Source: the human T2T-CHM13v2.0 reference genome, Homo sapiens
Assembly: GCF_009914755.1 (NCBI RefSeq)
Contig: NC_060929.1
DNA: 64,000 bases
Reading direction: 5' to 3' (one strand)
Shown here piece by piece: positions 18,231 through 18,932 of the stretch (its first letter is position 1; each line of letters begins with the position of its first letter). The position numbers and the translations under genes were made by a program. Under the pieces are notes generated by a model. That model was not told where the DNA came from. It saw only the letters and a list, made by a program, of their open reading frames with translations, and did not search any database.

Positions 18231-18932
18231 TTTTTTTATTTAACATTTTCTAAAAATACATACAAACAAAAAGATGCATATCAAACATATTAGGAAGGTT
18301 GCACATGCGAAGACGAGGAATAGAAATGGGGGGTGGGAATGAAAGAAAATAAATGAGAGAGGGACTTTGTATGGATCAGTGATAATAACTCAATCCTCTA
18401 TGTCTTTGACAAGAAGGAGAAGGAAGAGGAAGAAAAAGAAAGTGGGATAAAGGATCAGAAAGGGAGGAAAATAGAAAAAAATAGAGTATGACTCCAGGGT
18501 AGACCTGTTTTGTTGTTGCTGGGTTGGTTGGTTGGTTGGTTGGTTTGTTGTATTTTTCATATGTTTCACCATGTTGGCCAGGCTGGTCTCGAACCCCTAG
18601 CATCAAGTGATCAACCCACCTTGGCCTCCTGGAGTGCTGGGATTACAGGCGTGAGCCACCACGTCCAGCCCCCACACTGCGTCTGGCCTCTGTGGTAGAC
18701 CTCCCAGACGGGGCGGCCGGGCAGAGGCGCTCCCCACATCCCAGACGGGGTGGCCGGGCAGAGGCGCTCCTCACTTCCCAGACGGGGCGGCCAGGCAGAG
18801 GCGCTCCTCACTTCCCGGATGGGGCAGCCGGGCAGAGGTGCTCCTCACATCCCAGAGGATGGGCGGCCGGGCACAGGCGCTCCTCACATCCCAGACGGGG
18901 CGGCCGGGCAGAGGCGCTCCTCACATCCCAGA
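18231..18932 (-). mobile_element. LAVA-like composite: SVA-type VNTR, unique linker, partial AluS, (CCAA)n, CT-rich/L1ME-like segment, AATAAA and A-tail
   Basis: Minus strand reads VNTR, TCTGGGAG|GTCTACCACAGAGGCCAG, Alu left arm (18670-18563), ACATATGAAAAATACAAC(AACC)n, CAGGTCTACCCTGGAGTCATACTCT ... GAAAATGTTAAATAAAAAAA. This is the module order and linker sequence I recall for the LAVA 3' part. No SINE-R present. Confidence 0.78.
18703..18932 (-). repeat. SVA/LAVA-type GC-rich VNTR, six 37-39 bp units
   Basis: Units CCCAGACGGGGCGGCCGGGCAGAGGCGCTCCTCACAT start at 18703, 18740, 18777, 18814, 18851 and 18890. Confidence 0.95.

What the first reader, a model, noticed from the sequence alone, without database searches (positions are those of the whole stretch)
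18231..18932. LAVA-like VNTR composite (a gibbon-type retrotransposon) inside an apparently human/great-ape retrocopy
Seen: on the minus strand, six SVA-type VNTR units run via TCTGGGAG|GTCTACCAC into a short linker, a partial Alu, (AACC)n, a CT-rich/L1ME-like segment, AATAAA and an A-tail. There is no SINE-R. Known (recalled): this VNTR-U1-AluSz-U2-L1ME5 order defines the LAVA 3' half, described as amplified only in gibbons and thought to derive from VNTR splicing into an HSD17B3 intron. Inference: a proto-LAVA was already mobile in the hominoid ancestor, survived beside an ANKRD36 promoter, and was re-mobilised passively in antisense. RepeatMasker-style labels (SVA + Alu + L1ME) would hide it. 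Some great-ape LAVA-like relics may already be reported.
Basis: partly seen in the sequence, partly recalled or inferred. Interest (0 to 1): 0.8.

Follow-up and report, generated by a model that had tools for sequence, protein, structure and literature searches.

The report
LAVA-type relic inside human retrocopy
A human chromosome 5 pseudogene copy carries, backwards, a fossil with the same fused tail as the gibbon 'LAVA' jumping element, which suggests this fusion may be older than gibbons, though the human piece is inert and was only copied as a passenger.

Summary
On the minus strand, 18702-18932 is a 6.2-unit, 37-bp SVA-type VNTR. It joins at TCTGGGAG|GTCTACC to 459 bases (18242-18700) that are colinear with one VNTR-less chr9 locus. 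I equate that locus with the published LAVA 3' progenitor in HSD17B3 intron 2. A short A-rich tail follows.

CHM13 holds six such blocks: chr5, chr3, chr13 and three on chr9. None stands alone. All lie antisense in the last exon of a + strand processed retrocopy made of LSP1 exons, STRN exons, antisense ANKRD36-like sequence, the block and an LTR poly(A) site. The six copies come from four independent insertions with their own target-site duplications; the chr9 insertion was later triplicated.

The progenitor has AG just before GTCTACC, and VNTR units read GGGAG|GTGAGG, so the junction looks spliced. The block ends at least 16 bases short of gibbon LAVA, because a published gibbon primer site is missing. 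It therefore cannot be LAVA's direct ancestor; it is a sibling or an independent product.

Divergence suggests roughly 15-30 million years, about at or before the gibbon split.

Carbone 2012 counted six human U1-Alu-U2-L1ME5 copies but mentioned neither the VNTR nor the retrocopy carrier. No LAVA consensus could be aligned here.

The parts
18702..18932 (-). SVA/LAVA-type VNTR, 6.2 units of 37 bp. It is cut at its 5' end and abuts the LTR fragment directly.
   Evidence: TRF gives period 37, 6.2 copies, score 367. The unit matches the 37-bp unit visible in the first 400 characters of the published LAVA consensus except for one position (read by eye). The paralogues carry 3-6 units but share the same two borders.
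18671..18701 (-). VNTR-to-U1 junction (GGGAG|GTCTACC at 18701|18700) and the U1 linker, about 30 nt
   Evidence: The junction is identical in 6 of 6 human copies. The chr9 progenitor reads ...ATATAG|GTCTACC, that is, AG directly before the first shared base. As a 96-nt query, the junction matches full-length only in the 6 copies.
18561..18670 (-). Partial Alu (left arm), called AluSz/AluSz6 in the LAVA papers
   Evidence: Rfam Metazoa_SRP hit at 18561-18669 on the minus strand, E 2.3e-8. It is colinear with the chr9 progenitor, but has a 7-base deletion relative to it near the Alu's 3' end.
18242..18560 (-). U2, including (AACC)n at 18522-18550, plus the CT-rich L1ME5-derived segment. It ends at GAAAATGTT.
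   Evidence: A 336-nt query (18225-18560) without any Alu has exactly 7 places in CHM13, with 7 of 7 candidates scored: the six blocks and chr9:108435613-108435919. Homology to the progenitor stops at 18242.
18225..18241 (-). Short, interrupted A-rich tail containing AATAAA. It is absent from the progenitor locus. Its lower border is uncertain by about 6 nt.
   Evidence: In the alignment of the six copies with the progenitor, the progenitor continues with TATTGTTCTGTGTGC instead. ANKRD36-like homology to chr2:88.77M begins at 18224.
15568..19308 (+). Host: a processed retrocopy of a spliced chimeric transcript, flanked by the target-site duplication GAAAATATG (15559-15567 and 19309-19317)
   Evidence: The A tail is at 19272-19308 and both duplication copies are visible. 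Three other independent insertions have their own duplications, on chr3, chr13 and chr9. Homology among copies stops at the A tail and at variable 5' ends.
15568..16245 (+). LSP1-derived part of the host, with introns removed
   Evidence: Matches lie on chr11 at 1960363-1960749, 1972626-1972761 and 1973129-1973209, with the intervening introns absent.
16245..16503 (+). Three STRN-derived exons, fused in frame to LSP1 in a 178-aa ORF (15940-16476)
   Evidence: The exons match chr2:36932243-36932347, 36923206-36923291 and 36912676-36912761. Pfam Striatin PF08232 gives E 2.5e-16 and 60.9 bits, above the cut-off. These exons are skipped in the chr3 and chr9 copies and partly skipped in chr13.
16504..18224 (+). 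Antisense ANKRD36-like exon 1 and upstream region: the first part of the host's last exon
   Evidence: 91% identity to chr2:88773457-88775193, and partial matches to three other chr2 paralogues. The minus-strand ORF 16506-16721 reads an ANKRD36-like N-terminus. The gene name itself is recalled, not tested.
18933..19271 (+). Fragment of a dispersed LTR (recalled as LTR7 of HERV-H). It runs from just after ...CTGAAG of the full LTR to its AATAAA and poly(A) site, which ends the host RNA.
   Evidence: 98% identity to chrX:151956269-151956610 and 92% to copies on chr7, chr2 and chr1, all starting at the same query base. The border with the VNTR is the same in 6 of 6 copies.

Best explanation
The stretch is an inert fossil of a LAVA-type chimeric retro-element.

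Proposed origin (inferred): an RNA carrying SVA-type VNTR units was spliced from the donor inside a VNTR unit (GGGAG|GTGAGG) to a cryptic AG acceptor in HSD17B3 intron 2. This gave VNTR-U1-AluSz-U2-L1ME5. The RNA acquired an A-rich 3' end and was reverse-transcribed once into a locus about 1.7 kb upstream of an ANKRD36 paralogue, next to an LTR. It was 5'-truncated and has no recognisable target-site duplication.

Spread (shown): that locus later served as the last exon, read in antisense to the block, of a spliced LSP1-STRN chimeric transcript that ended at the LTR's poly(A) site. L1 machinery retro-copied this transcript at least four times, to chr5 (this window), chr3, chr13 and chr9. The chr9 copy was then triplicated by segmental duplication. 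The source locus is no longer recognisable in CHM13.

Relation to LAVA (inferred): the block is a sibling of gibbon LAVA, or an independent product of the same donor-acceptor pair. It is not LAVA's ancestor. It formed roughly 17-30 million years ago, around or before the gibbon/great-ape split. It has no demonstrated function today.
For: Shown:
- The block is colinear over 459 nt with the single VNTR-less chr9 locus.
- The junction is identical in 6 of 6 copies, and an AG precedes the shared sequence in the progenitor.
- An A-rich tail absent from the progenitor follows the block.
- Homology to the chr2:88.77M ANKRD36-like paralogue breaks exactly at that tail.
- Only 7 places in the genome hold the U2-L1ME5 part, with 7 of 7 candidates scored. 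The VNTR-U1 junction is found full-length only in the 6 copies.
- The host is a processed RNA copy. LSP1 and STRN introns are absent, exon content differs between copies, and there are poly(A) tails and four different target-site duplications.
- The three chr9 copies share flanks.
- The gibbon primer L1M5_R, designed on a full-length gibbon element, has no match in the block with up to 6 substitutions. It matches the human progenitor with 3 substitutions, and that match overlaps the block's last four bases (TGTT) and runs 16 nt beyond them.

Dating:
- Non-CpG divergence from a four-lineage majority reference is 1.46% (chr5), 1.93% (chr13), 2.16% (chr3) and 2.57% (chr9).
- Pairwise non-CpG divergence among the independent insertions is 2.96-5.3%.
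- Block reference versus progenitor: 15 of 444 sites, 3.4%.
- The ML tree of the block is star-like, with a progenitor branch of 0.036.
Against: - No LAVA consensus could be aligned. Identity of the VNTR-U1 junction with gibbon LAVA rests on the published description (28-bp U1, with AT just upstream), not on sequence.
- The block has no target-site duplication. Its 5' side is an LTR fragment rather than the continuation of the ANKRD36-like sequence, so a one-step L1-mediated insertion is inferred, not shown.
- There is no canonical poly(A) signal in the last 40 nt before the tail, so how the 3' end formed is unexplained.
- The ages use recalled calibration rates and a reference built from only four lineages. 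The chr5 copy (1.46%) could post-date the gibbon split.
- That chr9:108.436M lies in HSD17B3 was not verified. Pfam scans of minus-strand ORFs in 20 kb around it (146 ORFs) and a genome-wide adh_short search (18 matches, none on chr9) found no exon.
- Meyer 2016 states that only one copy existed in the anthropoid ancestor.
Confidence: 0.65

Rival explanations
1. Independent recurrence. The human block and gibbon LAVA arose from separate splicing events, or reverse-transcriptase template switches, that used the same VNTR donor and the same cryptic acceptor in HSD17B3 intron 2 at different times. On this view the human block says nothing about when LAVA arose.
For: The two 3' ends differ by at least 16 nt. 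The donor-acceptor pair is canonical in today's human sequence, so re-use is easy. VNTR donors are documented to splice readily to downstream acceptors (Damert 2020, passages seen).
Against: Two hits on one weak intronic acceptor are less parsimonious than one fused master with alternative 3' ends. At 3 of 3 primer-covered sites where the block differs from the human progenitor, the gibbon primer carries the block's state. This is also expected if the human progenitor changed later.
Confidence: 0.3
2. DNA-level mosaic. A small piece of the HSD17B3 intron was pasted next to a pre-existing VNTR by pericentromeric duplication or repair, without an RNA intermediate.
For: The source locus was a duplicon mosaic of LSP1, STRN and ANKRD36 pieces. 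The block has no target-site duplication.
Against: The piece is only 459 nt. It starts exactly after an AG and right after GGGAG of a VNTR unit. It ends in an A-rich tail that the progenitor lacks.
Confidence: 0.05
3. Chance neighbourhood of unrelated repeats (an SVA fragment, an Alu and an old L1 fragment), as repeat-masker labels would suggest.
For: None beyond the labels.
Against: The linker, Alu, U2 and CT-rich parts align as one colinear piece to one locus. The whole arrangement recurs in 6 of 6 copies.
Confidence: 0.01

Closest known systems
Gibbon LAVA (L1-Alu-VNTR-Alu-like) retrotransposon
   Same: It has a 37-bp VNTR unit and no SINE-R. The VNTR is joined to U1-AluSz-U2-L1ME5 copied from the chr9 (HSD17B3 intron 2) progenitor. 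The junction position is compatible with the published 28-bp U1.
   Different: The 3' end stops at least 16 nt earlier, so the L1M5_R primer site is missing. There is no CT-rich or Alu-like 5' part and no own target-site duplication. There is no sign of family-wise mobility, because all human copies are passengers in one host retrocopy. It is in human, not gibbon.
SVA, and the gibbon PVA/FVA composites
   Same: It is a VNTR composite whose 3' module looks acquired through the splice donor in the VNTR. This is the model the literature proposes for these families.
   Different: The 3' module is neither SINE-R, PTGR2 nor FRAM.
SVA2 (VNTR plus a unique 3' end, present in Old World monkeys too)
   Same: It is a VNTR followed by non-SINE-R sequence, and it is possibly of similar age.
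   Different: Lupan 2015 reports dominant SVA2 units of 40 and 39 bp; here the period is 37 bp. The 3' part comes from the HSD17B3 intron. The SVA2 3' sequence itself was not available to compare.
Processed (chimeric) retrocopies made by L1
   Same: The host element has lost its introns and has a poly(A) tail, variable 5' truncation and 9-16-bp target-site duplications at four sites.
   Different: This applies to the carrier, not to the block. The parent gene is a duplicon-fusion transcript that is no longer found in the genome.

Membership tests
LAVA | Central VNTR of SVA-type units | tested here: met
   Period 37, 6.2 copies. The unit equals the unit in the visible start of Carbone's LAVA consensus but for one base (compared by eye).
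LAVA | VNTR followed by U1-AluSz-U2-L1ME5 colinear with the chr9 progenitor, and no SINE-R | tested here: met
   468-column alignment at 91.5% to chr9:108435613-108436071. The order is the same in 6 of 6 copies.
LAVA | Same VNTR-U1 junction as gibbon elements | tested here: inconclusive
   The junction GGGAG|GTCTACC fits the published description of a 28-bp U1 with AT just upstream in the progenitor. No gibbon sequence across the junction was available.
LAVA | L1ME5 module running to the LAVA 3' end with its own poly(A) signal | tested here: not met
   The block ends at GAAAATGTT. The gibbon primer L1M5_R extends 16 nt further; it matches the human progenitor but not the block. LAVA_C's U1-to-L1ME5 part is 473 bp against 459 bp here.
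LAVA | 5' CT-rich repeats and Alu-like region | tested here: not met
   The VNTR abuts an LTR fragment in 6 of 6 copies. This could be 5' truncation.
LAVA | Own target-site duplication and poly(A) tail (L1-mediated insertion) | tested here: inconclusive
   An A-rich tail is present, but no duplication flanks the block.
LAVA | Many independent insertions of the element itself | tested here: not met
   7 of 7 genomic places are the progenitor plus six copies in the same host context.
LAVA | Placement among LAVA_A-F consensuses in an alignment or tree | not testable with these tools
   No repeat library was available. The supplementary consensus is cut after 400 characters, all of it VNTR. Paper reading closed.
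SVA | SINE-R 3' module | tested here: not met
   U1 follows the VNTR directly.
L1-made processed retrocopy (the host, 15568-19308 +) | Intron loss, poly(A) tail, target-site duplication | tested here: met
   LSP1 and STRN exons are joined without introns. A tails and four distinct duplications are present.

The most novel reading that the evidence does not exclude
The fusion that defines LAVA's 3' half, a VNTR spliced onto the HSD17B3 intron-2 fragment, arose once. It arose before gibbons split from great apes, possibly near the ape/Old World monkey split. On this reading LAVA's hallmark module is not a gibbon invention. Gibbons amplified one 3' variant. In the human lineage only a second, shorter variant survives, as an antisense stowaway in retrocopies of an extinct LSP1-STRN-ANKRD36-region fusion transcript.
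Probability: 0.45. Interest if true: 0.6.

Novelty: new variant of a known kind. Interest (0 to 1): 0.5.

Why it matters
LAVA is described as arising and spreading only in gibbons, and its origin is still modelled with hypothetical lost alleles (Meyer 2016). The human blocks are a second, datable product of the same VNTR-to-HSD17B3-intron join.

- Today's progenitor sequence already offers an AG acceptor at the join, so no extra mutation is needed for the splicing model.
- They give four insertion sites whose presence or absence in other primates would date the fusion directly.

The practical consequences are small. These loci can be mislabelled as SVA plus Alu plus L1 fragments. They also add six LAVA-primer targets to any human control, which Carbone 2012 already used as a six-copy calibrator.

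Tried and rejected
- Aligning to a LAVA consensus. Carbone 2012's supplementary consensus is stored cut after 400 characters, all of it VNTR. Motif searches in the supplements of Carbone 2012 and Meyer 2016 found nothing. A full-text search for a 16-nt U1 motif found 0 papers.
- Ianc et al. 2014, the paper most likely to discuss the human copies, is not held. Paper reading closed, so the supplements of Lupan 2015 (repeat-unit types) were not seen. The search of earlier findings was not open.
- Verifying that the chr9 locus is in HSD17B3. Of the 228 minus-strand ORFs of at least 38 aa listed in 30 kb, 146 from chr9:108421000-108440999 were scanned against Pfam and gave no adh_short hit. The other 82, from 108441000-108450999, were not scanned. 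A genome-wide PF00106 search listed 18 matches, none on chr9.
- Finding the source locus. The chr2:88.77M, chr2:97.61M and chrY:27.22M paralogues have no block or matching LTR within the 10 kb fetched.
- Canonical splicing as the cause of the block's other two borders (18224/18225 and 18932/18933) was considered and rejected. No GT/AG fits in either sense. The VNTR/LTR border shows only a 2-nt overlap.
- A search for 'LAVA-like', 'proto-LAVA', 'LAVA precursor' or 'ancestral LAVA' returned 75 papers. The 20 listed were all unrelated to transposons.

Full report
**1. What is there**

Read on the minus strand, 18932 to 18702 is a tandem array of 6.2 units of 37 bp (88% matches, TRF score 367). 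Its last unit ends TCTGGGAG and runs straight into GTCTACCAC at 18701|18700. The following parts come next:
- a linker of about 30 nt
- a partial Alu (Rfam SRP-type hit at 18561-18669 on the minus strand, E 2.3e-8, below the family's gathering score as expected for an Alu arm)
- (AACC)n at 18522-18550
- a CT-rich segment down to 18242
- a short, interrupted A-rich tail that contains AATAAA

No SINE-R follows the VNTR.

**2. The non-VNTR part is one copied piece**

A 471-nt query (18231-18701) found seven near-full-length places in the window's genome; all other listed matches were Alu-only (44 matches, 40 of 2647 candidates scored). An Alu-free 336-nt query (18225-18560) found exactly seven places, with 7 of 7 candidates scored.

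Six places carry the VNTR: chr5 (this window), chr3:75.44M, chr13:24.23M, and chr9:42.41M, 47.59M and 77.28M. The seventh, chr9:108435613-108436071, has no VNTR and aligns only to 18242-18702 (468 columns, 91.5%).

Carbone 2012 (sections 14 and 16 read) and Meyer 2016 (discussion read) describe a single U1-AluSz-U2-L1ME5 locus on human chr9. They give hg19 coordinates chr9:99,026,5xx and place it in HSD17B3 intron 2, as the putative progenitor of LAVA's 3' half. I equate the VNTR-less chr9 place with that locus. My attempts to find HSD17B3 exons nearby failed, so this equation is an inference.

**3. The junction looks spliced**

The progenitor reads ...ATATAG|GTCTACC, and the six blocks read ...TCTGGGAG|GTCTACC. 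Other VNTR units continue GGGA(A/T/G)GTGAGG, so GGGAG|GTGAGG is a consensus-like donor and ATATAG| supplies an AG acceptor.

Meyer 2016 counts the AG as part of U1. On that count the upstream dinucleotide is AT, and their splicing model needs a lost T-to-G allele. With the border placed two bases later, no mutation is needed.

The block's 3' end (GAAAATGTT plus an A-rich tail) is not in the progenitor, which continues TATTGTTCTGTGTGC. Both borders therefore point to an RNA intermediate. No canonical poly(A) signal precedes the tail, and this remains unexplained.

**4. Every human copy is a passenger**

The six copies share about 3.4 kb around the block. Homology ends at an A tail on the + strand and at variable 5' points. 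Target-site duplications differ between sites:
- chr5: GAAAATATG, at 15559-15567 and 19309-19317
- chr13: about 15 bp
- chr3: about 16 bp
- chr9: about 15 bp, shared by all three chr9 copies, whose flanks look like alpha satellite (my reading)

This gives four independent insertions, followed by triplication on chr9. Non-CpG differences among the chr9 copies are 0.70% (42.41M vs 77.28M) and 2.57% (47.59M vs each of the other two).

The carrier is a processed copy of a spliced RNA. It has LSP1 exons without introns, then three STRN exons without their roughly 10-kb introns. These form an in-frame 178-aa ORF with a Pfam Striatin hit (E 2.5e-16). Exon content differs among copies.

After the last STRN exon (ending at 16503) comes one long terminal exon. 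It consists of:
- antisense ANKRD36-like exon 1 and upstream region (16504-18224; 91% to chr2:88.77M)
- the block in antisense
- a fragment of a dispersed LTR ending at its AATAAA (18933-19271)

I recall this LTR as LTR7 of HERV-H; the label was not tested. No intron-bearing source locus with the block was found in CHM13.

**5. How the block got into the source locus**

Homology to the chr2:88.77M paralogue breaks exactly at the block's tail, as expected for the 3' junction of a retro-insertion. The 5' side does not resume that homology. In 6 of 6 copies the truncated VNTR abuts the LTR fragment with a 2-nt overlap. A 5'-truncated insertion with loss of target sequence fits this, but it is inference. 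No target-site duplication is visible.

**6. Relation to gibbon LAVA**

No LAVA sequence beyond 400 characters of VNTR was available. Six published primers served as probes.

The reverse primer L1M5_R was designed on a full-length gibbon element. It matches the human progenitor with 3 substitutions. That match overlaps the block's last four bases and runs 16 nt beyond them. It has no match in the block, even allowing 6 substitutions. LAVA_C's U1-to-L1ME5 part is 473 bp, against 459 bp here.

Gibbon LAVA therefore retains progenitor sequence that the human block lacks, so the human block cannot be LAVA's direct ancestor. It is either a sibling from a common fused master with a different 3' end, or an independent product of the same donor and acceptor.

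At 3 of 3 primer-covered sites where the block reference differs from the human progenitor, the gibbon primer has the block's state. This does not discriminate, because later change in the human progenitor explains it equally well.

**7. Age**

- Non-CpG divergence from a four-lineage majority reference: 1.46% (chr5), 1.93% (chr13), 2.16% (chr3) and 2.57% (chr9).
- Pairwise non-CpG divergence among the independent insertions: 2.96-5.3%.
- Two-against-two site patterns favour chr5+chr13 versus chr3+chr9 (31 sites, against 19 and 9 for the other splits). This suggests two generations of copies.
- The block reference differs from the progenitor at 15 of 444 sites.
- The ML tree of the block is star-like with a progenitor branch of 0.036.

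I recall human-lineage divergences of roughly 1.6% since orangutan and 3% since macaque. Carbone 2014 gives 16.8 My for the gibbon split. On these figures the fusion dates to roughly 17-30 My and the retrocopies to roughly 15-28 My. This is compatible with an origin at or before the gibbon split, but the errors are wide and no orthology test was possible.

**8. What is already known**

Carbone 2012 states that hg19 holds six copies of U1-AluS-U2-L1ME5 and used them as a six-copy qPCR calibrator. In the sections I read, neither the attached VNTR nor the retrocopy carrier is mentioned. The same paper says no human sequence matches the entire element. Later texts call the spacers unique in other primates and LAVA gibbon-specific (Meyer 2016; Carbone 2014; a 2024 preprint).

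Ianc 2014 could not be read and may bear on this. A search for 'LAVA-like', 'proto-LAVA' and similar terms returned 75 papers; none of the 20 listed was about transposons.

**9. Verdict**

This is a real LAVA-type VNTR composite relic in human, carried passively. It fails the LAVA membership tests for the 3' terminus, the 5' modules and independent mobility. It is best filed as a new variant of a known kind. It is inert and of moderate specialist interest, mainly because it makes the origin of LAVA's 3' module testable.

Noticed in passing
window 15940-16476 (+): An open 178-aa reading frame fuses LSP1 C-terminal sequence in frame to STRN sequence (Pfam Striatin E 2.5e-16). It sits inside the retrocopy annotated as LSP1P3. 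The parent fusion transcript is not found as a gene in CHM13.
   Followed up: partly
window 16168-16422, versus chr3, chr9 and chr13 copies: The retrocopies differ by whole exons. 16168-16422 is absent in the chr3 and chr9 copies, and 16169-16244 is absent in chr13. The lost parent gene was therefore alternatively spliced.
   Followed up: partly
L035-L037 (chr9:47.59M, 42.41M, 77.28M): The chr9 insertion lies in what looks like monomeric alpha satellite (my reading of the flanks). It was later triplicated. Non-CpG differences are 0.70% between 42.41M and 77.28M, and 2.57% between 47.59M and each of those two.
   Followed up: partly
window 14815-18471 (-), RefSeq LOC124901178: The predicted 'translation initiation factor IF-2' model starts at 18471, inside the block's CT-rich part. 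Its coding part (16722-17522) is a GC-rich frame in the ANKRD36-like upstream region. It looks like a spurious protein call on a retro-copied promoter region.
   Followed up: no
L032 (chrX:151956269-151956610): A full-length LTR on chrX is 98% identical to the LTR fragment of the chr5 copy, whereas other genomic copies are about 92%. Both are probably close to their family's founder sequence.
   Followed up: no
L040 (chrY:27221097-27221823) and chrY:27265917-27266021: On chrY, LSP1-like and ANKRD36-like pieces lie 5 bp apart in inverted relative orientation, and a STRN exon copy lies 45 kb away. This is a relative of the duplicon mosaic that must have formed the lost source locus, but it holds no block.
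   Followed up: partly
L038 (chr9:108436071-108436075 region): The human progenitor already has AG directly before the first base shared with the blocks. The published splicing model's need for a T-to-G mutation may therefore come from where U1 is taken to begin.
   Followed up: partly
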